This document shows, one piece after another, positions 2 through 12,451 of a stretch of 12,667 bases of DNA. The translations under genes and the position numbers were made by a program. This stretch comes from Planctomycetales bacterium. Its GTDB lineage: Bacteria > 4484-113. The first letter of the stretch is position 1; every line of letters starts with the position of its first letter. The notes beneath the pieces are model-generated. The model was not told the DNA's origin and made no database searches. It worked only from the letters and a program-made list of their open reading frames with translations. The stretch lies in contig JBBIJQ010000055.1 of the NCBI GenBank assembly GCA_037445915.1, forward strand, positions 1 through 12,667, read 5' to 3'.

Positions 2-1984
2 GACCTGAACGAGAACAACCTCACGCTTGTGGATAAGTTATGTTCGCGGCTGAACGGAGTTCCGCTGGCGATTGAATTGGCGGCCGGCTGGGTGGACAGC
101 CTGACGCTGCCGGAGCTGCTTGACGAGGTCGGCAAGCAAGTAAGCCTTACTGCGAGAATGGCTGATGTCCCCGAGCGGCAAAGAAGCATCCGCGCATCGC
201 TTGACTGGTCTTACGGCATGCTCGCTGAAGACCAGGCAGAAGTGCTTCTTGCGGTTTCTGCATTCAAAGGAGGGTTTTTCCTTGATGCGCTGGCTTCAGT
301 GGCAAGCGTCAAGGGCGACTTAAGGCTGCTCCTCAGCCAGCTTTGCGATAAAGGATGGCTGTTTACTCGCGAAGTACTCGGCAAGACGCGCTACTTCGTG
401 CGCGACGCAGCTATGAAGGTTTACGCTGTGGAGAAGTTCTGCGAGTCGGACCAGTCCAAGCGCATCGCGCGTGGGCACGCGCGTTTCTTCTCGGAACTCG
501 CCGGGCGCGAAGGCGCGAAGCTAGAAGGCGAAGGCCAGGTTGAAGCGTACAACCTCCTTGAAGTTGATGTGGAGAATATATATCGCGCCTTGAGCGCTGC
601 AATAAGGCGTAGGGAACCAAGCCTGCTGTTGCCGTTTACTAAGTACATGTATAAATTCCTTGAACTTGGCAGTAGGTATCAAGACGGCCTCACGTGGTAT
701 ATCAGGCTCACAGAAGTCGCTGACCTGCTGCCAGACGTGGCGCTCAAGGAATATTCACTCATCGGATTATCATCATTTCTTCACCGGCTTGGCCAATACG
801 ATGAATCCGCCAAGGCCGCTGAAGAAGCGTTGCGGTATGCACGAGTTGCTGGAGATAAAGAGCAACAAGCCGATTGCCTCTACAGCCTTGGGCTGATCGC
901 GCAAAGCCAAGGGCGTTATGCTGAAGCGGCTAACCTATGCCAGGAAGGACTCGCCATTTACCGCGAAATTGGCAACCAACCGGGCGTTGCGGAGTGCCTG
1001 AGTAACATGGGGCTGGTTGCAAAGCACCAAGGGCGTTACCAGGAAGCCCAAAAGCTGCACGAGGAAGCGCTTGAAATCCAGCGTAACAGGGGAAACCGCC
1101 TGGGAATCGCTACCGCGCTAAATGACCTTGGAGTGCTGGCGCGAGAACAGGGAAGCTTCCAACAGGCGGAAAAGCTGCACCGCGAGGCAATGCAGCTGTT
1201 CGGTGATATTGGCAACCGGCACGGCATCGCAGCGTCGCTGAACAACCTAGGAATAATCGCCTTTGACCAATCGCGTTTCGCCGAGGCCGACAGGCTTTAC
1301 GGCGAAAGCTTGCAGATAACGCAGGAACTCGGAGACCGACACGGCATTGCTTCAGCGCTAAATAACCTTGGCAACAGCGCATATTGCCAGTGGAACTACT
1401 GGGATGCCGAGAAATTCTACAGGGACAGCCTGGAAATCAAGATTGAAATCGGCGACCGACGCGGAGTAGCGGCATGCCTTGGTAACCTAGAGTTCACCTC
1501 TTATTGCCAGGGGCATTACGACGTTTCCGAAAGGCTGCACAAAGAGAGCTTACAGATAAAGCGCGAGATCAACAGCGTTTGGGGCATCGCCCATTCGCTT
1601 GGCAGCTTGGGAGCCGTCTATATCAAACAAAAGAAGATGAGAGAAGCGCGGCGTTGTCTGCTTGAAGCGCTGAAAACCGCAAAGGAAATCAAGAACCACC
1701 CTTTGATGACCGAGATCCTCGTCGTTAGCGGGCACATGCTGTCCTTGACCGACTTCCAGGGCGCGGCCGCGATCATTCTCGCCGGCGCTGAAAACCATGT
1801 GAAGACGATGAACTATCCGCTTGACCCGATTGAGCATGGCCTTTTGGAGGATGGGAACAGCAATCTGAGAAAAGCGTTGTCGGAAGATGAGCGAGCCGCA
1901 CATAAGGCAAAAGGGCTTAGCACATCGCTTGACGAATTAATTGACTTGGCGATGAAGTCCTTGGGTGGGCTTGGGAAGGGCTAG
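2..1984 (+). CDS. STAND/NB-ARC-like predicted ATPase with C-terminal TPR array (5'-truncated by the window edge)
   Basis: The frame is open from base 2 (DLNENNLTLVDKLC...), so GTG at 29 is probably not the true start. It has LCSRLNGVPLAIELAA (GxP motif), PERQRSIRASLDWSY, a winged-helix-like segment (FKGGF...LSQLCDKGWL) and then TPR repeats. The Walker A/B motifs lie outside the window. Confidence 0.88.
   Translation, partial: DLNENNLTLVDKLCSRLNGVPLAIELAAGWVDSLTLPELLDEVGKQVSLTARMADVPERQRSIRASLDWSYGMLAEDQAEVLLAVSAFKGGFFLDALASVASVKGDLRLLLSQLCDKGWLFTREVLGKTRYFVRDAAMKVYAVEKFCESDQSKRIARGHARFFSELAGREGAKLEGEGQVEAYNLLEVDVENIYRALSAAIRRREPSLLLPFTKYMYKFLELGSRYQDGLTWYIRLTEVADLLPDVALKEYSLIGLSSFLHRLGQYDESAKAAEEALRYARVAGDKEQQADCLYSLGLIAQSQGRYAEAANLCQEGLAIYREIGNQPGVAECLSNMGLVAKHQGRYQEAQKLHEEALEIQRNRGNRLGIATALNDLGVLAREQGSFQQAEKLHREAMQLFGDIGNRHGIAASLNNLGIIAFDQSRFAEADRLYGESLQITQELGDRHGIASALNNLGNSAYCQWNYWDAEKFYRDSLEIKIEIGDRRGVAACLGNLEFTSYCQGHYDVSERLHKESLQIKREINSVWGIAHSLGSLGAVYIKQKKMREARRCLLEALKTAKEIKNHPLMTEILVVSGHMLSLTDFQGAAAIILAGAENHVKTMNYPLDPIEHGLLEDGNSNLRKALSEDERAAHKAKGLSTSLDELIDLAMKSLGGLGKG
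752..1711 (+). repeat. Eight tandem 40-aa (120-nt) TPR-like repeats within the ATPase-TPR gene
   Basis: Exact 40-aa period with consensus xxLxNLGxxAxxQGxYxEAxxLxxEALxIxxExGNxxGIA. A DNA echo is visible, e.g. CAAGGGCGTTA at 908 and 1028. Confidence 0.9.
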
Positions 1985-2065
1985 GCCCGAAGAGTTTTCC
2001 TTGGATATCCTCCCTGCCGCCAGTTTCTCCTGACGCTTGTCACAAAACCTGGCGTGTCCGCTTGT

Positions 2066-2094
2066 TTAACCTTCGCTGTGTTTCAGGCGATAAT
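2066..2094 (+). promoter_or_regulatory. Possible sigma70-type promoter for the 2111 gene
   Basis: TTAACC (2066-2071), 17-nt spacer, GATAAT (2089-2094). This would give a roughly 10-nt leader with no Shine-Dalgarno. Confidence 0.35.
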
Positions 2095-2110
2095 ACACTG
2101 CTGGCTAACT

Positions 2111-2707
2111 ATGGAGAAGGATAAGCTAAAACGGCTGTCGCACTGGTGGCGCGAGGTAGAAACGGCCTCCGACGAAGAAGCGCTGCGGCGCAAGCTTCAC
2201 TTAATGGAAGCCGAGATACGCCACACCCTTCGCGGCGCGCACGCCGCCAGGAAGCGCCAGGTTCTCCGCAACTTCTACGCCGCGGGGCTGCTTGGAGTAG
2301 TGCTGCTGCTTTCGCTTGGCATTGCCCGCGTTGTTCCCCCAACGGATTCCCTCCGGTATGCCACAACCGAAACCGGCGAAAAGTATCCTGCCGTATCGGA
2401 AGAAGTAATCCTGGCTGCGCCTGTGCAACAGCCCCCTTTAGCGGCGCCTGCGCCTGATAAGCCAAAAGCGTCAATCCGCGAAGCCCGGCAGGCCTCCGCA
2501 AGCGTAAGGCCGAAACGCCCGCATGCCGTAGCCCGCCAAATTGCGCCGCCTGCCGTTATGCCCACGCCTCCCGCCGAAGCCCCCGCCTCCGTTGAGCCAG
2601 CATCCCTAGCGCCTGCGCCTTCTACGGCTAAGACGAAAGCTGAGCCTGAGATGGGGCTGGATGCGCTGGCGCTTTTATCAAGTTTGGAGAGCGAGTTTGA
2701 GAAGTAG
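2111..2707 (+). CDS. Hypothetical single-pass membrane protein with Pro/Ala-rich extracytoplasmic linker
   Basis: ATG at 2111 is preferred over GTG at 2054. It has a charged helical N-terminus, a basic patch (RKRQVLR) followed by a hydrophobic helix (FYAAGLLGVVLLLSLGIA), a long Pro/Ala-rich region and an amphipathic C-terminal helix (LDALALLSSLESEFEK). Confidence 0.75.
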   Translation: MEKDKLKRLSHWWREVETASDEEALRRKLHLMEAEIRHTLRGAHAARKRQVLRNFYAAGLLGVVLLLSLGIARVVPPTDSLRYATTETGEKYPAVSEEVILAAPVQQPPLAAPAPDKPKASIREARQASASVRPKRPHAVARQIAPPAVMPTPPAEAPASVEPASLAPAPSTAKTKAEPEMGLDALALLSSLESEFEK

Positions 2708-2726
2708 CCAGTTAGGCTGCTATAAT
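2697..2726 (+). promoter_or_regulatory. Sigma70/sigmaA promoter with extended -10 for the bamA operon
   Basis: TTGAGA (2697-2702), 18-nt spacer, TGcTATAAT (2718-2726; perfect extended -10). The RBS AGGAGG follows at 2745-2750. Confidence 0.7.
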
Positions 2727-2755
2727 CACTAGGCTTGGATTCCCAGGAGGGAGGT

Positions 2756-4510
2756 ATGGTGAACCGGTCCCTATACAAACTTGCTGCATTAGCGCTTTTA
2801 TTATCGCTTGCCTTCAGCGCAACGATGTCGGCCCCTTCATTCGCGCAAGGCGTTATCGTCAACAACATTCAGGTTATCGGACTAGTTAACCTAGACCAGA
2901 GTATCGTTATTAACGCGCTGACGATTAAGCCGGGACAAGAGATTCCCGGCAATGTCTTGAGCGAACTGAACAAGAACAGCGAAACGCTCTACAACACGGG
3001 TTACTTCCAGGCTCCCCCAGAACTTGCCTTGGACTACTATGAGGGCAGGACAATACTGCTCATCAAGGTGTTGGAGAACCCAGTTTTCAAGGATGTCGTC
3101 TTCAGCGGCAACACTATTTTCAGCACTGAACAACTGCGCGCCCTTATCACGCTAAAGCCTGGGGAAGTCACCAACCTCAAACAGCTTGAGCAGGACATCT
3201 CCGAAGAAATCCTCGGCCTATACGCCAGGCAGGGATATGTCGGCGCATACATCCAGGAGTTCGCGCTGAGCACGCTGGAAGAAGATGCGGGGACTGTTTA
3301 CATCACACTCTCCGAAGGCGTGATTGAAGACATCGTCTTTGAGGGCAATAGGAAAACTAAGACATCGCTCCTTAAGATGATTGTCGGCCGGCAATTGAAG
3401 GTCGGCGAAACCCTGAAGGAAGAGCGCGTTGAGAAGGCGATGCAGGACCTATTCAATACCGGCGTCTTTGAGCAGGTTGAGCCGACTATGGAGCCTGCGC
3501 CGACCGGCGGCAACATCATCGTCAAGTTCAACCTGGCAGAGACGACGACCGGCCAGGCTGGCATCGGCATGGGCTTTTCCACCGCCAACGGCTTGCAAGG
3601 AACGCTCTCCTACGGCGAGCGCAACCTAATGGGCGAGGGCAAGACTATTTCGGCCCAGCTTGTTTTCAGCAAGAACAATCCCGGTTACCAGATTAATTAC
3701 TCCGACCCTTACCTGAACGAAAAGAACTTCCTATCCGCCAGCCTCTACGACCTTAATTACCGCCAGCAGCGCGACCCCGGTTCCCCTGCAGAAAGCGAAA
3801 TTGATGTTGACAGCATCGGCGGCGATTTCAGCCTCGGCCACCGCTTCAGCGACACGCTCTCCGGAAGCGTTGCGCTAGGGGTGGTTGATTACGACTACAC
3901 AATACTTAAGGGCGACCCGTTCCACGATTACGACCCTATCCGCCGCGGCAGGCTCCAGCAAACGGGCCAGAACCGGAGCGTAACCATTGGCTTGATAAAC
4001 GACACGCGCGACAGCATATTCACCACTCATGAAGGCAGCTACCTCAGCACCTCCGCGCAAATTGCAGGCTTCGGCGGCGACTTTGACTTCCGCAAATACA
4101 TCATTGACGGCAGGCTGTTCCTGCCGCATATGAAGACGAACACAGTAGCCCTGCGTGCCCGCGCGGGCATCGCCGATGGCGACACACCAGTCTTTGAGGA
4201 GTTCCGCGTCGGCGGAGTAAGCTCGGTTCGCGGCGTCCCTGAGGATTACCTTACCGGCACGAAGATGCTGCTTTTCAACGGCGAATACCGTTTCCCCATA
4301 GACAAGAAGAAGAGCTTTACGGGCGCCATCTTCACTGACTGGGCGATGGTCGGCGAAAGCTTCGGCGATACTGATGACATCTATACCGCCGGCATTGGCA
4401 TCCGCTTCCGCGTGCCCGCGCTGGGGCTTGGCTCAATCCGCCTTGACCTTGGCTGGGATTTGCGCGAAGGCGGCACACGCCTCCACTTTGGCATCGGCGA
4501 AATGTTCTAG
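2756..4510 (+). CDS. bamA: Omp85/BamA-family outer membrane protein assembly factor (3 POTRA + beta-barrel)
   Basis: ATG 2756 follows AGGAGG. A signal peptide ends ...PSFA-Q. Three POTRA starts are visible (NNIQVIGL, KDVVFSGN, EDIVFEGN). The barrel has GERNLMGEG, FRVGGVSSVRG and a terminal LHFGIGEMF. The gene lies upstream of lpxD. Confidence 0.92.
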   Translation: MVNRSLYKLAALALLLSLAFSATMSAPSFAQGVIVNNIQVIGLVNLDQSIVINALTIKPGQEIPGNVLSELNKNSETLYNTGYFQAPPELALDYYEGRTILLIKVLENPVFKDVVFSGNTIFSTEQLRALITLKPGEVTNLKQLEQDISEEILGLYARQGYVGAYIQEFALSTLEEDAGTVYITLSEGVIEDIVFEGNRKTKTSLLKMIVGRQLKVGETLKEERVEKAMQDLFNTGVFEQVEPTMEPAPTGGNIIVKFNLAETTTGQAGIGMGFSTANGLQGTLSYGERNLMGEGKTISAQLVFSKNNPGYQINYSDPYLNEKNFLSASLYDLNYRQQRDPGSPAESEIDVDSIGGDFSLGHRFSDTLSGSVALGVVDYDYTILKGDPFHDYDPIRRGRLQQTGQNRSVTIGLINDTRDSIFTTHEGSYLSTSAQIAGFGGDFDFRKYIIDGRLFLPHMKTNTVALRARAGIADGDTPVFEEFRVGGVSSVRGVPEDYLTGTKMLLFNGEYRFPIDKKKSFTGAIFTDWAMVGESFGDTDDIYTAGIGIRFRVPALGLGSIRLDLGWDLREGGTRLHFGIGEMF

Positions 4511-4536
4511 GGCCGGCGTAACGCCGCAAACGCTAA

Positions 4537-5892
4537 ATGCGCGCATTGGCTGTAACATATGCTGGCAAGCTTGCGCTTGCCTTTATCGCCGCAACAGCGG
4601 CGCTATTCAGCCTGTATTCACCCGCAACGGCGCAAGACGCGCAGCGTGACACGATTACTTCCGTTGAACTGGAGATAGACTGGGCAGACGGCAAGCCGGG
4701 CGAAGGCATAGCCGCCGAGGTTAATGAAGCCATCCAGCGTACATTGCAGCTTGCGATAATGGAACAGCTCGGCGCATCCATCCCGCGCCTTGAAGCCAAC
4801 AAAGAACAGATTACTTCAACTCTGCTAAACGTATTTGACCTCGTCCTTGATAAGCGCGGAATGAAGCTTACGGATATCGCAATAACCCCGGCTGAAAACA
4901 CGCTTGTCCGCCTTGCAATCTCTCTCATCGGCGATAAGCTGGAATCCGTCTCGGTGGACTTCCGCTTTCCCAGCGACACCCCGCTTCTCGGGGCAGTAAC
5001 CGCTTCCGACCGGGATGCAATCAGCGCGGCGCTGGAGGCGAAGTTAGGGGGCGCGCCTGTCAGCGACCTTTCCTGGGTGGAAAAGCTCATCGTACGCGAA
5101 GTTCTAGCAGAGCTGGCCGCACGCAACGAGTATGTGGGCTTTGACCCGCTAGTGCTGACAATCCCCGACGCGCAGGCGAAAGTTATTATAACGCTGCTTC
5201 CCCGGTTCGGCGAGGCGGTTGTAGAGCGGTATTTTGTGAAGCTGCGCTCCGGCACGATGCTCAACCTACAGCTTTCAGATGTTGGCAGCTTTGTTGGCGC
5301 GAATATGGAAAGCCTGCGCGGGCTGCCAGTGGGCTTTGTCAAGGGGAAAAACAGCCTTATTTGCGGCTATCTTGAAAAGGAAACCGTTTTCGCTCCCGAC
5401 CTGGCAATCGCATCGCCGGTGGCGACGGCGGAGCTGTATATCGCCGGCGCAGATGCGTCGCTGGTGTTCACCGTGGAATCGCAGAAGTTTCGCTTAAGCG
5501 CGAGCGGCCGCGTGGACTTCAACCGCCCCACAGATAATGCGCGCCTGGACTTTAGCGCGGGCCTGCGCGTGCTGCCTACTGCGGACGTCTGGGCGCACGG
5601 CACGTTCTATCCCGGCGAGTTTGAGCTGCGCCCGCAGGCGGGCATCGGCTACCGGAATAGGGACCGCGCATTCGCAGAGTTCGGCTACGACTTTAAGATG
5701 AACAGCGCCATCGCGCGCGCCCAGCTCAATGTGCTGCCCGACTTCTACTTGTCAGCCGAGGCTTATGCCGAGGACAAGCTGAAGGACGAAAACGAATACG
5801 GCATTACTTACATATTCAGGAACATCTACGAACTGAAGGTCATAACCGACTTTCGCGATGAGATTTTCGCCTCGCTAGGGGTAAGGCTATGA
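4537..5892 (+). CDS. Uncharacterised exported/outer-membrane-associated protein (POTRA-like alpha/beta repeats + C-terminal beta-strand domain)
   Basis: A 451-aa ORF 26 nt after bamA, with its stop overlapping the lpxD start (ATGA). It has a signal peptide (...SPATA-QD), and the last ~135 aa are short amphipathic strands ending ASLGVRL. Confidence 0.8.
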
Positions 5893-6923
5893 CGGTCAAG
5901 CTGGAACAACTTGCGAAATTCGTTAGCGGCGAAGTCAAAGGCGGCCTTGCCAGCGGAACGGTCAAGGGCTTCTGCTCGCTCTTGCGCCCGCAGGCAGGGC
6001 ATATTGCGTTTGTGGAAAAGCCGCTGGAGCGCGGCCAACAGCCCCCGGATTTCGTCATCACTACCGCCAAGCTCGCGCCACGCTTTTCCAACGCCATCAT
6101 CGTTGAAAATCCGCGCCTCGCGTTTGTAATGGCGATGGAGTACTTCCTAAGCCTCAAAGCGCCTGCGTGCAAGCCCACTATCAGCGAGCTTGCATCCGTG
6201 CACCCGGATGCCAAGCTAGGCAAGGGCGTTAGCGTCGCCGCTTTCGCAGTAATTGAGAAAGGCGCGCGCATCGGCTCCGCTGCCGTCATAGGCGCGAATT
6301 GCTTTGTCGGCGAAGACGCGGCAATCGGCGAAAGGTCACGCCTTCACGCCGGGGCCGCGGTGATGGACAGGTGTGAGATAGGAGCGGGCTGCGTCATAAA
6401 CTCCGGCACTGTTATCGGCTCGCAGGGCTTCGGCTTCGTGTCCACGCGGGAAGGCCACCGCAAGTTTCCGCAAGTAGGCATCGTCGTCGTTGAAGATGAC
6501 GTGGAAATCGGAGCGTGCTGCGCTATTGACCGCGCCGCCCTTGACGAAACGCGCATCGGGCGCGGAACCAAGATAGACAACCTGGTTCAGATAGCGCACA
6601 ACGTCCGCATCGGCGAGCACACACTCATCGCGGCGCAGTGCGGCTTCGCGGGAAGCTCAAGCGTCGGCTCATGGTGCGTCATCGGCGGGCAGGTCGGCGT
6701 CGCGGGCGGGGTGGAGATTGGCGATGGCTGCGTGGTCGCAGGGCAAAGCGGCGTCTTCTCGTCAATTCCGCCGAAGAGCAAAGTGTCGGGATATCCAGCG
6801 CGACCGCACCAGCAGGCAATGCGCGTGCTGGCGCTCACATACCGCTTGCCGGAACTGACAGAGAAGATAAAAGCGCTGGAGGAAGCGCTAAAGGAGCTGA
6901 AGCGCGCCAAGAAGGCCCGCTAA
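5889..6923 (+). CDS. lpxD: UDP-3-O-(3-hydroxyacyl)glucosamine N-acyltransferase
   Basis: NPRLAF, hexapeptide left-handed beta-helix repeats, [40 protein letters not shown] (catalytic His), GGQVG, SGYPA and a C-terminal helix. Confidence 0.96.
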
Positions 6924-7621
6924 GCCAGCACAGTCCCGTTTACAACCAACCGGAACTCGCAAGCCAAATAGCGCACCGCGTCCCGGGTCATCATCATCCT
7001 GCTCGTGAATATCTGGAAGTACTCCATTACCGAGGCGATCTGCGGGTCAATCTTCAGGTCAAGCGTAATGAGCTTGTTCTCCCTGTCAATTCTCAGCGCG
7101 GATTCCACGCAGGCATAGTTCACGTCGTCATGTATATCGTGGAATTCAGGATAGTAGCTGCGCACGCGCGAGCGGTGGACGTCCGCCTTGTCGGCGATAA
7201 TGACCGCGGCGCAAACAGGATTTAGCGGCGGCGAGTCCTCCTCTTCATGGCTGCCAATAGCTCCCATAACTACGCCCGTTTGGTGGGGCGTGAAGCCGGT
7301 GCGGCGCAAGATAGGGTAAGCAAGCATGGCGCCGCTTCGTGTGTGGTCTTCGCGCCCCACGAGGTTGCCGATGTCGTGCAGCAGCCCTGCGCACTTTGCA
7401 AGCTGCGCCTGCTCAACGCTGTACCCAAGCTCGGAAAGGACATTCCCAGCGGCTTCCGCGACCAGCGTCACGTGCCGCAGCCCGTGCTCCGTGTAGCCGA
7501 TGGCTTCCATCGCCGCATCGGCAAGCTCAATGAACTCGCGGACTTCCGCGTCCTCGCGCAGCAGCTGGTAGAGCGTGTCCACCGGCGGCGAATAGACTTG
7601 CGCTTGTTTGTGTTCCATCAT
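6920..7621 (-). CDS. HD-superfamily metal-dependent phosphohydrolase
   Basis: Motifs [34 protein letters not shown] and [17 protein letters not shown] (complement of 7628-7632) lies 6 nt before ATG 7621. Confidence 0.9.
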
Positions 7622-7646
7622 GCGGTACTCCTAATTGCGCTCATCC

Positions 7647-8171
7647 CTAGCGCGGGCTCTCTTCGGGAAACACGATGCGCCCCGGCGTGGCCTGCGGCAC
7701 GGCAGCTTCGCTTGCGAGCGCAGGCTGCGGCTGCGGCGCAACGTGCTGCCTGCCTGCAAGCGCCGGGTTCTTGGTTTCAAGCATGCGGATGAAGCCGGTA
7801 AGCAGCCCGTAGAATTCGTATTCAAAACGTTCGCGCTCTGATGCGATTTCGGATGCGCGCGAGTTTAGCTCAATGCTTTGCAGCCGCGCTTCCTTGACGA
7901 TGTTCTCGGCTTCATGCCGCGCATTGGCGATGATTTCGTCGTGGGATTTCTGGGCGAGCATGATGGAGTTGCGAAGCGTCTCCTCGTTGTCGCGGTTGCG
8001 CTGGATATCCGCCTCGCACTCGGCGATCTTGTGCTTGAGGCGCTCGATCTCGTCCACGTGCTCTTGCAGCGCCGCCGCAACTAGCGCTACGAACTCCTCC
8101 ACGTCGGCCTTGCTCACGCCGAACATGGCTGACCCGAATTTGTAGTTCTCAACGTCGTTGATTGTGAGCAT
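7647..8171 (-). CDS. divIVA: DivIVA-family coiled-coil cell division/polarity protein
   Basis: The N-terminus MLTINDVENYKF...FGVSKADVEEFV matches the DivIVA domain. The coiled coil has EETLRNSIMLAQKSHDEIIANARHEAENIVKEA. RBS GGAGGT is the complement of 8176-8181. Confidence 0.88.
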   Translation of the reverse strand: MLTINDVENYKFGSAMFGVSKADVEEFVALVAAALQEHVDEIERLKHKIAECEADIQRNRDNEETLRNSIMLAQKSHDEIIANARHEAENIVKEARLQSIELNSRASEIASERERFEYEFYGLLTGFIRMLETKNPALAGRQHVAPQPQPALASEAAVPQATPGRIVFPEESPR

Positions 8172-8661: not shown

Positions 8662-8836
8662 ATGCGCTGCTGAAGCCCCGCGCGATAACCCTCGGCGACG
8701 CGAATGTGATTTGCGTCACGAGTCCATGGGGAAAGGGTGCTTTCCCAGCTGGCGAGGGCCGGCTGTTTCCGCATCCCCGGCCGCAAACGGCTCAGCGTAT
8801 GTTTAACACTCATTGCTTCGCGACCAGGAGGAAATT

Positions 8837-11800
8837 ATGAAAATACAGCATGTATCCCTTGACGGCAACACGGCGGCTGCTTACACGTCGCATGCCACGA
8901 ATGAAGTGATCGCCATCTACCCCATTACGCCATCGTCGGTAATGGGCGAGCTGGCAGACGAGTATTCGGCGCACGGCCGCAAGAACATCTGGGGACAGGT
9001 TCCCACGGTGGTTGAGCTGCAGTCCGAAGGCGGCGCGGCAGGCTCCATACACGGCGCGCTCACCGCAGGCGCGCTGGCGACAACCTACACTGCATCGCAG
9101 GGACTTCTGCTGATGATTCCCAATATGTTCAAGATATCGGGCGAGCTCGCGCCGACGGTGTTCCACATCTCGGCGCGCTCGGTATCCTGCCAGGCGCTGT
9201 CCATCTTCGGCGACCACTCGGACATCATGGCCTGCCGCAGCACCGGCTTCGGCATCATTATGTCCGCGAATCCTCAGGAAGTCATGGATAACGCGCTGGT
9301 CGCCCAGCAGGCGTCAATGAAAAGCCGCGTGCCCTTTATCCACGCCTTTGACGGCTTCCGCACCAGCCATGAAATCCAAAAGGTCGTGGAAGTTTCCTAC
9401 GACACAATGCGCGCGATGATTGACGAAGAAGACATAGTCGCCATCCGCAACCGCGCGCTTAAGCCTGAGACGCCGACGATGCGCGGAACGGCACAAAACC
9501 CCGACCTTTACTTCCAGGGCCGCGAGTCAGTGAACCTATTCTACGCCAAGTGCCCCGATACCGTGCAGGCCGCATACGACCGTTTCGCCAAGCTGACCGG
9601 CCGCCAATATCACCTCTTTGATTATGTGGGCGCGCCTGATGCTGAAACCGTGATGGTCATTATGGCTAGCGCCGCTGATACAGCCGAAGAAACCGTCAGC
9701 TATATGCACGAGAAGGAGTGCCAGAAGTGCGGCCTCATCAAGATTCGCCTTTACCGCCCGTTCAGCGTTAAGCACTTCCTTGAAGCAATGCCGCCGACGG
9801 TCAAGCGCGTGATTGCGATGGATCGCACCAAAGAGCCCGGCGCCGACGGCGAGCCGCTCTACCTGGACATCAGCGCTGCGATTGTTGCAGGCTACCGCGC
9901 AGGCAAGTTCAAGGAATTGCCTGTCGTCATCGGCGGGCGCTACGGCTTAAGCTCCAAAGAGTTTACGCCGCCAATGGTCAAGGCTGTCTTCGCGCATGCC
10001 AACAGCGGCAACCCCTTTAACGGCTTCACAGTGGGTTTTGACGACGATGTAACGCATAAGTCGCTGGACTACTGCATTGACTGCGACACCGAGCATGAGA
10101 GCACTTACCGCGCAAAGTTCTACGGCCTGGGCGCCGACGGCACAGTAGGCGCAAGCAAGAACACCATAAAAGTCGTGGGCGAGAACACGGAAAAGCACGT
10201 CCAGGGCTACTTCGTTTACGACTCCAAGAAGGCTGGCGGAGTGACCTGCTCCCACCTGCGCTTCTCCGACGCCCCAATCAAGTCAACCTACCTTGTCAAC
10301 CGCTCCGATTTTGTCGCAGTTCATGCCGAGAGCTTCATCGGCCGCATCAACATGCTCAGAGGCGTTAAGGAAGGCGGCACGCTGCTCATCAACACCTATA
10401 TGCCCGCCGAGACGCTTTTTGAGAGCCTGCCCCGCCGCGAACAGGAAGTCATCATTGAAAAGAAGCTCAAGGTTTACTGCATCAACGCATACGAAATTGT
10501 CCTTGAGCTGGGCTTGCCCGGCAGAATCAACACGACGATGCAGGCCGCATTTTTCAAGCTTTCAGGCGTGCTGCCGGAGAAGGTTTACACAGAGGCCATT
10601 GAGGGGGCTATCTCCAAGTCCTATGCCTCCAAGGGCAAGGAAGTCGTGGAGAAGAATATCGCCGCCTTCCGCCGTGGCATGGAAATGATTTGCGAAGTCC
10701 CCGTCCCCGCGAAGATTACCGTTTCCGGCCCGGATGTTAAGTATCCGGAGATTGAGGACCCCATCATCGCTGAGTTCTTTGACGACGTCATCAAGCCGGT
10801 GATGAGGCAGGAAGGCGACATTGTTCCCGTTTCCAAGATGCCCATAGACGGCGTATTCCCGACAGCCACTACGCAGTACGAGAAACGCTCCATCGCCACA
10901 CACCTGCCGATGTGGAACCCTGATTTCTGCATCCAGTGCAACCTGTGTTCCTTCGTTTGCCCGCACGCTGCCATCCGCCCGAAGATAAGCAAGAAGGGCG
11001 ATATCAAGCTGCCTGCGGAGAAGTACCCAACGGTCGCTTACAAGGACAAAGCGGCAGAGGCCGATGATATATTCCACATCCAGGTTTTTCCAGAGGACTG
11101 CACAGGCTGTGAGGCTTGCGCGGTTACCTGCCCCGGCGAGGAGCGGGTCAATAAGGTTAAGACCGGCCGCAAGGCGCTGACGATGGTTCTCAAGGGCGAA
11201 GCTATAGATGGCCTGAAAGAGAGCTTGGAGACATTCCTTGGCTTGCCGGAGACCGACAACAAGTTCATCAAGGTTAACACTGTTAAAGGTAGCCAATTCA
11301 AGCGCCCCTTGATGGAGTTCAGCGGCGCTTGCGCTGGCTGCGGCGAGACCCCTTACCTAAAGCTCGTCACCCAGCTCTTCGGCGACCGGATGCTCCAGGC
11401 GAACGCCACCGGCTGCTCGTCAATTTGGGGAGGCACCGCGCCGACTTCGCCTTATTGCGTGAACGACAAGGGATACGGCCCGGCTTGGTCAAGCTCGCTG
11501 TTTGAAGACAACGCCGAGTTCGGCTACGGGATGCGCTTGGCAATTGACGCGCTGCACGAGAAGGCATACTCCCTGCGCGAGATGATACTGGCTGATTCTG
11601 CTGCGCCCGGCGAGGTTAAAGACCGCCTTGCCAAGCTACAAACCATCGCAAAGCAGGCTGCCGACCCGGCCGTTATTGAAGCGAACATGGAGCTTGCCCG
11701 CGATCTCAAGGCTGTCATTGAGGGGATGGGCGGCAAGGCAACTCCGCAGATCGCCTACCTCAAAGAGATGCTGCCCTACTTCGTGAAGAAGTCTGTGTGG

Positions 11801-12451
11801 ATTGTGGGCGGCGACGGCTGGGGCTATGACATTGGCTATGGCGGCCTTGACCATATTCTCACTTCCGGCGTGGACGTGAACCTGCTGGTTCTGGACACCG
11901 AGGTTTACTCTAACACAGGCGGCCAGCGTTCTAAGTCAACTCCGATGTCCGCGGTTGCGAAGTTCGCCAGCGCAGGAAAGCAGACTGCCAAGAAGGACTT
12001 GGGGCTGATGGCTATGGCCTACCGCTCGGCGTATGTAACGAGCATCTGCTACTCCGCCAAGCCCGGACAAACCGTGCGCGCGATACTTGAAGCCGAGAAC
12101 TTCCCTGGAACTTCGCTGATCCTCGCTTACAGCCACTGCATTGAGCACGGCTTCCCGCTACAGAACATTGAGGCTCAAGGGAGGTTGGCGGTAGCTTCAG
12201 GCTACTGGCCGATTTACCGCTTTGACCCGCGCCTGATTGACGAGGGCAAGAACCCGCTGCAGCTTGACATGGACGAGCCGAAGTTCACCTTCCGCGATTA
12301 CGCGATGAAAGAGAACCGTTTCCTCCGCCTGTTACGCGATTTCCCGCAGGAAGGCGAAAAACTCATCGGGGAAGCCGAGGTTTCCGTCCGCCGCAACTGG
12401 CTTTACTATAAGTCGCTTGCTGCAATGGATTTCTCGCAGTTCGCCCGCTAA
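8837..12451 (+). CDS. nifJ: Pyruvate:ferredoxin (flavodoxin) oxidoreductase, single-chain type
   Basis: ATG 8837 follows AGGAGG (8826-8831). Motifs: YPITPSS, QSEGGAAG, TASQGLLLMIP, FDGFRTSHE, GLGADGTVGA, YDSKKAGG, two ferredoxin motifs (CIQCNLCSFVCP, CTGCEACAVTCP), GACAGCGE, NATGCSSIWGG, TPP-binding GGDGWGYDIG and EVYSNTGGQ. Confidence 0.97.
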   Translation: MKIQHVSLDGNTAAAYTSHATNEVIAIYPITPSSVMGELADEYSAHGRKNIWGQVPTVVELQSEGGAAGSIHGALTAGALATTYTASQGLLLMIPNMFKISGELAPTVFHISARSVSCQALSIFGDHSDIMACRSTGFGIIMSANPQEVMDNALVAQQASMKSRVPFIHAFDGFRTSHEIQKVVEVSYDTMRAMIDEEDIVAIRNRALKPETPTMRGTAQNPDLYFQGRESVNLFYAKCPDTVQAAYDRFAKLTGRQYHLFDYVGAPDAETVMVIMASAADTAEETVSYMHEKECQKCGLIKIRLYRPFSVKHFLEAMPPTVKRVIAMDRTKEPGADGEPLYLDISAAIVAGYRAGKFKELPVVIGGRYGLSSKEFTPPMVKAVFAHANSGNPFNGFTVGFDDDVTHKSLDYCIDCDTEHESTYRAKFYGLGADGTVGASKNTIKVVGENTEKHVQGYFVYDSKKAGGVTCSHLRFSDAPIKSTYLVNRSDFVAVHAESFIGRINMLRGVKEGGTLLINTYMPAETLFESLPRREQEVIIEKKLKVYCINAYEIVLELGLPGRINTTMQAAFFKLSGVLPEKVYTEAIEGAISKSYASKGKEVVEKNIAAFRRGMEMICEVPVPAKITVSGPDVKYPEIEDPIIAEFFDDVIKPVMRQEGDIVPVSKMPIDGVFPTATTQYEKRSIATHLPMWNPDFCIQCNLCSFVCPHAAIRPKISKKGDIKLPAEKYPTVAYKDKAAEADDIFHIQVFPEDCTGCEACAVTCPGEERVNKVKTGRKALTMVLKGEAIDGLKESLETFLGLPETDNKFIKVNTVKGSQFKRPLMEFSGACAGCGETPYLKLVTQLFGDRMLQANATGCSSIWGGTAPTSPYCVNDKGYGPAWSSSLFEDNAEFGYGMRLAIDALHEKAYSLREMILADSAAPGEVKDRLAKLQTIAKQAADPAVIEANMELARDLKAVIEGMGGKATPQIAYLKEMLPYFVKKSVWIVGGDGWGYDIGYGGLDHILTSGVDVNLLVLDTEVYSNTGGQRSKSTPMSAVAKFASAGKQTAKKDLGLMAMAYRSAYVTSICYSAKPGQTVRAILEAENFPGTSLILAYSHCIEHGFPLQNIEAQGRLAVASGYWPIYRFDPRLIDEGKNPLQLDMDEPKFTFRDYAMKENRFLRLLRDFPQEGEKLIGEAEVSVRRNWLYYKSLAAMDFSQFAR

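What the first reader, a model, noticed from the sequence alone, without database searches (positions are those of the whole stretch)
4537..5892. Unknown 451-aa protein between bamA and lpxD looks like three POTRA-like units plus a short beta-strand domain: candidate BAM/LPS partner
Seen: a signal peptide, then three ~90-aa units that read by eye as strand-helix-helix-strand-strand (starting [27 protein letters not shown]; ending ...VRLAISL, ...VIITLLP, ...LVFTVES). From about 5488 come ~135 aa of short alternating-pattern strands rich in Gly and aromatics, ending FASLGVRL. The gene follows bamA by 26 nt and is coupled to lpxD by an ATGA overlap. Established: this slot normally holds the helical chaperone skp/ompH, which this protein does not resemble, and POTRA domains have beta-alpha-alpha-beta-beta topology. 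Inference: it may be a highly diverged or miniature Omp85-like protein, or an accessory subunit of outer-membrane assembly in a lineage lacking BamB-E. Its beta region is far too short for a 16-strand barrel, so it could be a small barrel, an oligomeric barrel, or strands that augment the BamA lateral gate. I recall uncharacterised genes in outer-membrane clusters of other diderm Terrabacteria but cannot confirm homology.
Basis: partly seen in the sequence, partly recalled or inferred. Interest (0 to 1): 0.72.

Follow-up and report, generated by a model that had tools for sequence, protein, structure and literature searches.

The report
SonA-like mini POTRA-barrel protein beside bamA
The unknown gene between bamA and lpxD encodes an outer-membrane protein with three POTRA-like domains on a tiny ten-stranded barrel, the same design as the SonA protein recently described in two-membraned Firmicutes, here found in a different uncultured lineage, and its job is still unknown.

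Summary
ORF 4537..5892 (451 aa) lies 26 nt after an Omp85/BamA gene and overlaps lpxD by ATGA. The three units are homologous to one another (hhalign 93-96%). Foldseek's 49 listed best hits are all BamA/TamA (best E 1.6e-11). The last 136 aa alone fold into a 10-stranded barrel closest to a designed 10-strand transmembrane barrel (TM 0.52). All ten strands have one hydrophobic and one polar face (0 of 2000 shuffles as strong).

No Pfam, NCBIfam or PDB sequence match exists for 70 family members. Profile comparison finds no homology with the neighbouring BamA.

The architecture and gene position match SonA of Acetonema longum (PMC13018214, Feb 2026): 426 aa, three POTRA domains plus a 10-strand barrel, in the operon sonB-bamA-sonA-skp1. 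Here the order small-TM-gene, bamA, target, lpxD is kept in 9 of 9 genomes from MAGs labelled Planctomycetales or 'bacterium'. I could not fetch SonA itself, so direct homology is untested. BamA binding is not shown.

Verdict: new member of a recently described, functionally open kind.

The parts
2054..2707 (+). SonB-like small bitopic membrane protein. The ORF is 217 aa from a GTG, but the probable true start is the ATG at 2111, where the relatives begin. It has a conserved N-terminal helix (RLSHWWREVE...KLHLMEAEIRH), one TM helix, a Pro/Ala-rich linker and a conserved C-terminal LDALALLSxLESEFEK.
   Evidence: No Pfam or NCBIfam hit. Translation. An alignment of 8 orthologues shows the conserved ends and the variable linker. 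The L007 copy is at 4157..4780. The gene sits upstream of bamA in 9 of 9 genomes. No PDB sequence match (best E 0.056). Homology with A. longum SonB was not tested.
2735..4510 (+). BamA-type Omp85 protein of 591 aa. The barrel starts near residue 297, and the N-terminal ~260 aa are long enough for three POTRA domains.
   Evidence: Pfam Omp85 7.8e-35 (297-591) and POTRA 2.2e-26. TIGR03303 1.3e-67, below cut-off. The consensus 'GGVNSVRGLPED' is conserved in 8 orthologues. The count of three POTRA domains is inferred from length, not modelled.
4537..4632 (+). Signal peptide of the target (residues 1-32, with A-T-A before Q33).
   Evidence: Read from the sequence. Model helix at 2-25 and low pLDDT at 27-36. 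'AxAQ' is conserved in the family consensus. No predictor was run.
4648..4932 (+). POTRA-like unit 1 (residues 38-132): E42-49, H56-77, H89-105, E109-117, E121-130.
4933..5214 (+). POTRA-like unit 2 (residues 133-226): E137-143, H149-170, H178-194, E202-209, E213-222.
5215..5484 (+). POTRA-like unit 3 (residues 227-316): E231-237, H243-258, H265-292, E294-303, E306-315. It holds the family-wide conserved RS-T--N and LRGLP motifs.
5485..5892 (+). C-terminal 10-stranded minimal beta-barrel (residues 317-451) plus the stop codon. Turns are 2-6 residues, with one short helix at 413-418. The hydrophobic face carries aromatic residues at strand ends, and the polar face is conserved and rich in charge.
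5889..6923 (+). lpxD, whose start overlaps the target's stop codon (ATGA).
   Evidence: NF002060 8.9e-108 and TIGR01853 2.2e-94. Overlap shown. The same neighbour occurs in 8 of 8 loci.

Best explanation
The gene encodes a SonA-type outer-membrane protein. A Sec signal peptide is followed by three tandem, mutually homologous POTRA-fold domains in the periplasm. These hang from a minimal 10-stranded transmembrane beta-barrel that serves as a membrane anchor rather than a channel.

It is made from one operon with a small bitopic membrane protein (SonB-like), BamA and LpxD.

Most likely mode of action (inferred, not shown): the barrel inserts into the outer membrane. The POTRA arm then binds unfolded or partner polypeptides by beta-augmentation. 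In this way it acts as a barrel-anchored, non-lipoprotein accessory or receptor of outer-membrane protein biogenesis that works transiently beside BamA.

Shown here: gene order, repeat structure, predicted fold, amphipathic barrel pattern and family spread.

Taken from the paper on A. longum SonA: co-expression with BamA and spontaneous insertion into liposomes.

Inferred: outer-membrane location in this organism, the anchor role of the barrel, substrate or partner binding by the POTRA arm, and any link to BamA.
For: Predicted fold:
- Three beta-alpha-alpha-beta-beta units plus 10 strands (pLDDT 86.7).
- The barrel alone models at pLDDT 90.1 with 10 strands.
- For the full model, all 49 listed Foldseek hits are BamA or TamA chains, best 7nri_A at E 1.6e-11.
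- The barrel alone gives no BamA or TamA among its listed hits. Its best hit is the designed 10-strand transmembrane barrel 8uzl_A (E 5.3e-5, TM 0.52/0.50). The Omp85 resemblance therefore sits in the N-terminal units.

Transmembrane-type pattern:
- 10 of 10 strands are amphipathic, and 0 of 2000 shuffles are as strong.
- On the hydrophobic face, aromatics are commoner at strand ends (0.33) than in the centre (0.18). The polar face is more conserved (0.43 against 0.36) and carries 8 R, 5 E and 4 D.
- The last residue is hydrophobic in 70 of 70 members.

Family:
- 88 representatives at E<=1e-3, none longer than 472 aa.
- 70 aligned members are 414-467 aa long.

Synteny: small TM gene, Omp85, target, LpxD in the window and in 8 of 8 loci.

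Literature (PMC13018214; passages, Table 1 and section 12 read):
- SonA (F7NM22) is 426 aa and carries a Sec signal.
- AlphaFold gives it a 10-strand barrel plus three POTRA domains.
- It lies in the operon sonB-bamA-sonA-skp1.
- It is co-expressed with BamA.
- It is protected from trypsin after incubation with liposomes.

Link to Firmicutes:
- ESM Atlas nearest clusters for the target (score 0.96) are 430-432 aa and most commonly Bacillota.
- P0037 is a HMMER relative of the target (E 5.7e-17). Its Atlas model matches the same 157-member Bacillota cluster at TM 0.90.
Against: - Direct homology with A. longum SonA could not be tested because its sequence could not be fetched. The link rests on architecture, gene position and unnamed intermediates.
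- The skp gene that follows sonA in Negativicutes is absent here; lpxD follows in 9 of 9.
- There is no sequence-level POTRA signal: 0 of 70 members hit Pfam POTRA at E<=0.1, and hhalign against the BamA POTRA regions gives at most 7%. This test has little power, because the BamA POTRA regions score at most 31% against each other.
- Foldseek TM-scores for the whole model are low (0.14-0.22), as expected for a flexible multi-domain chain, so global superposition is not shown.
- Soluble 10-strand nitrobindins match the barrel about as well (TM 0.55-0.58).
- In A. longum, cross-linking co-IP with anti-BamA recovered no SonA. This argues against a stable BamA complex.
- No localisation or functional data exist for this lineage.
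Confidence: 0.6

Rival explanations
1. It is a TamA substitute. The three POTRA domains dock the C-terminus of a TamB/AsmA-like bridge protein at the outer membrane, so the protein serves lipid or protein transport across the periplasm rather than BamA.
For: TamA chains give the highest TM-scores among the Foldseek hits: 4c00 at 0.22, and 8us3, 8us1 and 8us2 at 0.21, 0.18 and 0.19. TamA likewise has three POTRA domains; that number is recalled and comes from no call. The SonA paper itself suggests 'possible interactions with TamB' and notes that Negativicutes have TamB but no TamA.
Against: No tamB or AsmA-like gene lies in the window or in the 8-kb flanks that were annotated (only a subset of flank ORFs was scanned). 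The TM differences are small. A 10-strand barrel has no known lateral gate to accept a TamB strand.
Confidence: 0.15
2. It is an autonomous 'pioneer' insertase. The small barrel self-inserts into a naive membrane and, with its POTRA domains, seeds the first rounds of outer-membrane protein assembly independently of BamA. This is the model offered for spore germination in A. longum.
For: SonA and BamA both became protease-protected in liposomes at physiological temperature. [quoted passage not shown]
Against: The paper states that SonA presence does not correlate with sporulation ability. Nothing in the window suggests a sporulating lineage. A 10-strand barrel with a filled, charged interior shows no Omp85-type gate or loop-6 element. 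The model has turns of 2-6 residues only.
Confidence: 0.1
3. It has an LPS-related role. Being translationally coupled to lpxD, it might assist LPS export or the LptD translocon rather than protein assembly.
For: The ATGA overlap with lpxD is seen in the window and at L006 9317-9320. LpxD is the downstream neighbour in 9 of 9. The paper reports an atypical 16-strand LptD without LptE in A. longum.
Against: The order bamA, skp, lpxD is a common arrangement in many diderms (established knowledge, not tested here), so the neighbourhood does not discriminate. In Negativicutes, skp1 follows sonA, not lpxD. POTRA domains are known for protein binding, not lipid binding.
Confidence: 0.08
4. It is a soluble periplasmic protein whose C-terminal domain is a nitrobindin/lipocalin-like ligand-binding barrel, not a membrane anchor.
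For: Nitrobindin structures (3wje_B, 7bbm, 2a13, 3ia8_A) match the barrel model at TM 0.55-0.58. This is slightly above the designed transmembrane barrel at 0.52. A dyad pattern alone does not say which face points outward.
Against: Most other listed hits are outer-membrane barrels: OmpG, porins, OmpX, Ail, KdgM, OmpA, OprF, FapF and PcoB. The family profile's best PDB sequence hit is a variant of a designed 12-strand transmembrane barrel (E 0.003). Aromatics lie at the ends of the hydrophobic face, and the charged face is the more conserved one. All 70 members end in a hydrophobic residue. A. longum SonA was protected by liposomes.
Confidence: 0.05

Closest known systems
SonA (UniProt F7NM22, WP_004097360.1) of Acetonema longum; Nat Commun 2026, PMC13018214
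   Same: Sec-type N-terminus. Size 426 against 451 aa. Three N-terminal beta-alpha-alpha-beta-beta POTRA domains plus a 10-stranded barrel, both by AlphaFold. The gene lies directly after a ~590-600-aa bamA, which is itself preceded by a small gene with one TM helix (sonB). There is no Pfam family.
   Different: The host lineage differs: MAGs titled Planctomycetales or 'bacterium', not Firmicutes. lpxD follows instead of skp1. In the family tree the window's clade sits in a different major branch from the member tied to Bacillota clusters (P0037) (quick tree, unlabelled rows). Direct sequence comparison was not possible.
BamA / TamA (Omp85 superfamily, Pfam PF01103 + PF07244)
   Same: N-terminal tandem POTRA-fold domains are followed by a C-terminal transmembrane barrel. 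They are the best structural matches. The location is periplasm plus outer membrane.
   Different: The barrel has 10 strands, not 16, with no long loop-6 element. No Pfam Omp85 or POTRA match appears in 0 of 70 members. Profile comparison with the neighbouring BamA gives 0.2%. The three units resemble each other far more than they resemble BamA's POTRA regions.
Minimal 10-strand barrels: designed TMB10_163 (PDB 8uzl); small outer-membrane proteins such as OmpX, Ail and OmpA-TM
   Same: Size (136 against 141-143 aa), an up-and-down barrel with very short turns, and dyad amphipathic strands.
   Different: Those have no periplasmic POTRA arm. The natural small outer-membrane proteins listed have 8 strands and long extracellular loops; these properties are recalled and were not computed here.
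Skp/OmpH, the usual occupant of the bamA-lpxD slot
   Same: Gene position only.
   Different: There is no Pfam OmpH match. The fold is alpha/beta domains plus a barrel rather than a helical trimer.

Membership tests
SonA (PMC13018214) | Sec signal peptide, not a lipoprotein | tested here: met
   Read from the sequence: n-region, h-region, then A-T-A before Q33, with no Cys in the first 36 residues. Model helix at 2-25. No signal-peptide predictor was available.
SonA (PMC13018214) | [quoted passage not shown] | tested here: met
   DSSP of the AF2 model. The Foldseek best hits are all BamA/TamA. The units are mutually homologous.
SonA (PMC13018214) | Ten-stranded C-terminal beta-barrel | tested here: met
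   Ten strands in both models. The best Foldseek hit is a 10-strand designed transmembrane barrel, TM 0.52.
SonA (PMC13018214) | Gene immediately downstream of bamA | tested here: met
   Window and 8 of 8 loci.
SonA (PMC13018214) | sonB (small protein with a TM helix) upstream of bamA | tested here: inconclusive
   A ~200-aa gene with one TM helix lies upstream of bamA in 9 of 9. Its homology with SonB F7NM24 could not be tested.
SonA (PMC13018214) | skp1 immediately downstream | tested here: not met
   lpxD follows directly in 9 of 9. No OmpH/Skp hit among the window ORFs scanned.
SonA (PMC13018214) | Sequence homology to A. longum F7NM22 | not testable with these tools
Indirect evidence comes from HMMER relatives of 414-467 aa and from Atlas clusters that are most commonly Bacillota.
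SonA (PMC13018214) | Inserts into lipid bilayers / outer-membrane location | not testable with these tools
   Only sequence patterns are available.
Omp85 superfamily (BamA/TamA/TpsB) | 16-stranded Omp85 barrel domain (PF01103) | tested here: not met
   0 of 70 members hit it at E<=0.1. The model has 10 strands. hhalign of the target barrel against the BamA barrel gives 1.2%.
Omp85 superfamily (BamA/TamA/TpsB) | POTRA domains recognisable by sequence (PF07244) | tested here: not met
   0 of 70 members at E<=0.1. hhalign of the units against the BamA POTRA regions gives at most 7.1%; this is a low-power test.
Omp85 superfamily (BamA/TamA/TpsB) | POTRA fold | tested here: met
   The barrel alone does not retrieve BamA/TamA.
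Skp/OmpH | OmpH helical domain (Pfam OmpH) | tested here: not met
   No Pfam hit. The model is alpha/beta plus barrel.
BamB-E type accessory lipoproteins | Lipobox Cys after the signal peptide; matches to Bam lipoprotein families | tested here: not met
   No Cys in residues 1-36. No Pfam or NCBIfam match.

The most novel reading that the evidence does not exclude
The three genes sonB-like, bamA and sonA-like form an ancient outer-membrane biogenesis module that is not confined to Firmicutes. SonA-type proteins are a separate, old POTRA-plus-barrel lineage whose three POTRA units arose by duplication within the family; they are not a recently truncated BamA. In diderms whose accessory factors cannot be lipoproteins, this protein would be the barrel-anchored accessory subunit of BAM. 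The conserved C-terminal helix of the inner-membrane SonB-like protein would reach across the periplasm to its POTRA arm.
Probability: 0.25. Interest if true: 0.75.

Novelty: new member of a known kind. Interest (0 to 1): 0.45.

Why it matters
BamA accessory factors are unknown outside Proteobacteria and a few other groups. SonA is one of the few candidates, and it was published only in 2026 as a feature of diderm Firmicutes, with no assigned function.

Finding the same design and the same gene order in an uncultured lineage that the records do not place in Firmicutes suggests two things. The module may be old and widespread, with at least 88 clusters at 50% identity. It is also unlikely to be tied to sporulation.

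The work yields comparative data for function tests:
- family-wide conserved positions (G108, P174, W180, S238, G262, P264, G342, G369, E420);
- evidence for an internal triplication;
- a conserved SonB-like C-terminal helix as a candidate binding partner.

The family has no Pfam or NCBIfam model, so it is currently annotated as 'hypothetical' everywhere.

Tried and rejected
- Sequence family searches of the target and of 70 relatives found nothing meaningful: Pfam, NCBIfam and PDB by sequence or profile. The best PDB hit was a designed 12-strand barrel at E 0.003.
- Profile-profile comparison with the adjacent BamA, both whole (0.2%) and domain by domain (at most 7%), found no homology. I do not read this as proof of independent origin, because the 8-sequence BamA alignment is shallow.
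- Two further word-indexed homologue searches, made to obtain organism names for distant relatives, returned no names.
- The first locus scan, with the 18-sequence alignment, failed for lack of a conserved stretch. It was redone with 14 closer sequences.
No complex was folded, so nothing can be said on binding.
- The SonB-like protein against PDB gave nothing.
- The promoter/terminator scan found no more sites than the shuffles did.
- Literature searches for another name for this architecture found only PMC13018214. The Antunes 2016 eLife passages on unknown genes of the OM cluster name other COGs.
- Closed collections (metagenome contigs, viral contigs) were not searched.
- The PDF supplements of PMC13018214, which hold the homologue and synteny tables and figures, could not be read. 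They may list SonA homologues that bear on membership.
Full report
**What is in the window**

The + strand carries four tightly packed genes:
- A small ORF at 2054..2707.
- An Omp85/BamA gene at 2735..4510. Pfam gives Omp85 7.8e-35 and POTRA 2.2e-26. TIGR03303 BamA scores 1.3e-67 but falls below its cut-off.
- The target at 4537..5892 (451 aa).
- lpxD at 5889..6923. NF002060 scores 8.9e-108 and TIGR01853 2.2e-94, both above cut-off.

The target itself matches nothing in Pfam, NCBIfam or the PDB by sequence.

**Anatomy of the protein**

I aligned 18 homologues and predicted the structure with AlphaFold2. The model has mean pLDDT 86.7 and pTM 0.73. Its elements are:
- An N-terminal helix at 2-25, followed by a low-confidence stretch at 27-36. 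By reading, this is a Sec signal peptide with A-T-A before Q33.
- Three units with the order strand, helix, helix, strand, strand at 42-130, 137-222 and 231-315.
- Ten strands between 318 and 450.

The repeats are statistically real. I cut the 70-sequence family alignment (A3) into its units and compared them by hhalign. They match one another at 96.3%, 93.1% and 92.9% probability (E 1.5e-9 to 3.8e-7) over 82-89 columns.

**Are the units POTRA-like?**

- By fold, yes. Foldseek of the whole model against the PDB lists only BamA and TamA chains in its 49 printed rows. The best is 7nri_A at E 1.6e-11, and 96 hits reach E<=1e-3.
- The TM-scores are low (0.14-0.22), as expected when four domains on flexible hinges are superposed as one body.
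- The barrel alone retrieves no BamA or TamA, so the Omp85 resemblance must come from the N-terminal units.
- By sequence, no. 0 of 70 family members hit Pfam POTRA or Omp85 at E<=0.1. hhalign against an alignment of the neighbouring BamA and its orthologues gives 0.2%. Unit against POTRA region gives at most 7.1%.
- The last test is weak, because the BamA POTRA regions score at most 31% against each other in that shallow alignment.

**The C-terminal domain**

I folded the last 136 residues alone, using 9 sequences taken by DNA reference from the window and the 8 loci. They form ten strands at pLDDT 90.1 and pTM 0.78.

Structural matches:
- The best Foldseek match is the designed 10-strand transmembrane barrel TMB10_163 (8uzl_A): E 5.3e-5, TM 0.52/0.50, 143 residues.
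- Soluble 10-strand nitrobindins match at TM 0.55-0.58.
- Most other rows are outer-membrane barrels.

Sequence pattern:
- All ten strands have one hydrophobic and one polar face. The mean difference is 3.54, against 1.63 +/- 0.38 in shuffles, and 0 of 2000 shuffles reach it. The pattern holds for the family means.
- On the hydrophobic face, aromatic residues are commoner at strand ends (0.33) than in the middle (0.18).
- The polar face is the more conserved one (0.43 against 0.36) and carries 8 Arg, 5 Glu and 4 Asp.
- The last residue is hydrophobic in 70 of 70 members.
- The family profile's only sub-0.01 PDB sequence hit is a variant of a designed 12-strand transmembrane barrel.

Together these favour a lipid-facing hydrophobic surface and a filled, charged interior. 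That describes an anchor, not a channel. I could not inspect the coordinates, so the orientation of the two faces is inferred.

**The family**

- The exhaustive HMMER search found 88 representatives (clusters at 50% identity) at E<=1e-3, 30 at E<=1e-10 and 13 at E<=1e-30. None is longer than 472 aa, so no fused or 16-strand form was seen.
- The 70 that I aligned are 414-467 aa long.
- Family-wide near-invariant positions are G108, P174, W180, S238, G262, P264, G342, G369 and E420.
- No member has a name beyond 'hypothetical protein'.
- A quick ML tree puts the window's clade (9 rows, SH-aLRT 100) in one of two major branches. The careful search did not finish, and the rows carry no taxon labels.

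**Genomic context elsewhere**

One scan of species-representative genomes returned 8 loci, at 43-78% identity to the target. Five are titled 'Planctomycetales bacterium' and three 'bacterium' or 'uncultured bacterium'.

In 8 of 8 loci the target is preceded by an Omp85+POTRA protein of 583-594 aa and followed by an LpxD-type hexapeptide transferase. At L006 the LpxD ORF runs off the contig end.

In 9 of 9 genomes, counting the window, bamA is preceded by a ~200-aa gene with these features:
- a conserved N-terminal helix;
- one TM helix;
- a variable Pro/Ala-rich linker;
- a conserved C-terminal LDALALLSxLESEFEK.

**Comparison with the literature**

A full-text search led to PMC13018214 (Nat Commun, Feb 2026). 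I read passages found by term search, Table 1 rows and section 12 in full. I also ran one term search over its spreadsheet supplement. Its PDF supplements were not readable.

The paper describes SonA (F7NM22, 426 aa, Sec/SPI) of Acetonema longum:
- It is encoded in sonB-bamA-sonA-skp1.
- It is co-expressed with BamA.
- It is protected from trypsin after incubation with liposomes.
- SonB is predicted to include a TM helix.
- Cross-linking co-IP with anti-BamA serum found no accessory partner.

The target shares the architecture, the size and the position after a ~590-aa BamA, together with a small TM-helix gene in front of bamA. It differs in host lineage and in having lpxD rather than skp as its downstream neighbour.

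I could not obtain the SonA sequence, so homology is supported only indirectly:
- The ESM Atlas places the target nearest to unnamed 430-432-aa clusters that are most commonly Bacillota (score 0.96).
- P0037, a HMMER relative of the target (E 5.7e-17), is held in the Atlas. Its model matches the same 157-member cluster at TM 0.90.

Three other searches for the architecture under another name found nothing further.

**How it most likely works**

Shown here:
- an operon-like arrangement with BamA and LpxD;
- a tandem POTRA-fold arm;
- a minimal barrel with a transmembrane-type sequence pattern.

Inferred: the barrel anchors the protein in the outer membrane, and the POTRA arm binds polypeptides or partners in the periplasm by beta-augmentation, as POTRA domains do in BamA, TamA and TpsB (established knowledge). 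I therefore favour a barrel-anchored accessory or receptor role in outer-membrane protein biogenesis, acting transiently beside BamA.

The negative co-IP in A. longum argues against a stable complex.

Rivals are:
- TamB docking (a TamA-like role);
- an autonomous pioneer insertase;
- an LPS-related role;
- a soluble barrel protein.

**Novelty and verdict**

The BAM-partner idea remains open.

The kind of protein is already in print as SonA, so this is a new member of a known, functionally uncharacterised kind. It is notable for lying outside Firmicutes according to the record titles.

I recall that GTDB uses '4484-113', the name of one of these MAGs, as a placeholder phylum. One search shows only that papers use that string together with 'phylum'; I did not verify the placement.

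The internal triplication and the lack of any sequence link to BamA suggest an old, separate lineage rather than a recent BamA truncation.

Noticed in passing
window 2054..2707 (+); L001-L008 upstream of bamA; L007 4157..4780: The small gene before bamA encodes a bitopic protein. Its N-terminal helix is strongly conserved (WW-containing motif, KLHLMEAEIRH) and so is its C-terminal amphipathic peptide (LDALALLSxLESEFEK). The two are joined by a TM helix and a variable Pro/Ala-rich linker. It has no Pfam, NCBIfam or PDB match. It is a candidate counterpart of SonB, and its C-terminal peptide is a candidate ligand for a POTRA domain.
   Followed up: partly
window 2697..2726 (+): A near-consensus sigma-70-like site (TTGAGA, 18 nt, TG-TATAAT; 11 of 12) lies inside the 3' end of the small gene and ends 9 nt before the annotated TTG start of bamA. 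The overall count of such sites is not above the shuffles (3 against 2.5). If it is real, bamA may start further downstream or be nearly leaderless.
   Followed up: no
window 7647..8171 (-) and 6920..7621 (-): A DivIVA-domain protein (Pfam 2.8e-22) and an HD-domain protein (6.7e-07) are encoded convergently to lpxD. DivIVA is also present at the same place in L005 and L008. The + strand ORF 7247..7792 overlaps the HD gene and is probably spurious.
   Followed up: partly
window 2..1984 (+); L001 2153..5374: Upstream is a large TPR protein, 5'-open in the window. In L001 it is 1073 aa with weak guanylate-cyclase and AAA_16 matches before the TPR region. In the scanned loci L002, L007 and L008 a 5'-nucleotidase/BsuPI-domain protein lies there on the opposite strand, and L003-L006 have a minus-strand ORF of similar size at that place that was not scanned. 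The conserved block therefore starts at the small TM gene.
   Followed up: no
window 8813..12451 (+): Pyruvate:ferredoxin oxidoreductase (TIGR02176, 1608.8 bits). A similarly sized ORF (1212-1236 aa) lies at the corresponding position in loci L001-L005. It suggests an anaerobic lifestyle.
   Followed up: no
target residues 316-451 (window 5482..5889): Among close relatives the barrel is the best-conserved part of the protein (mean column identity 76%, against 66% for the whole protein). Many charged positions are invariant (R, D, E, N, K). This is unusual for a mere membrane anchor and may mark a functional interior or interface.
   Followed up: partly
L002 2391..3260 (-): Relatives carry Amj (the alternate lipid II flippase, Pfam 6.6e-72) close to the cluster, together with MiaA, Dtd and a RelA/SpoT-like fragment.
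   Followed up: no
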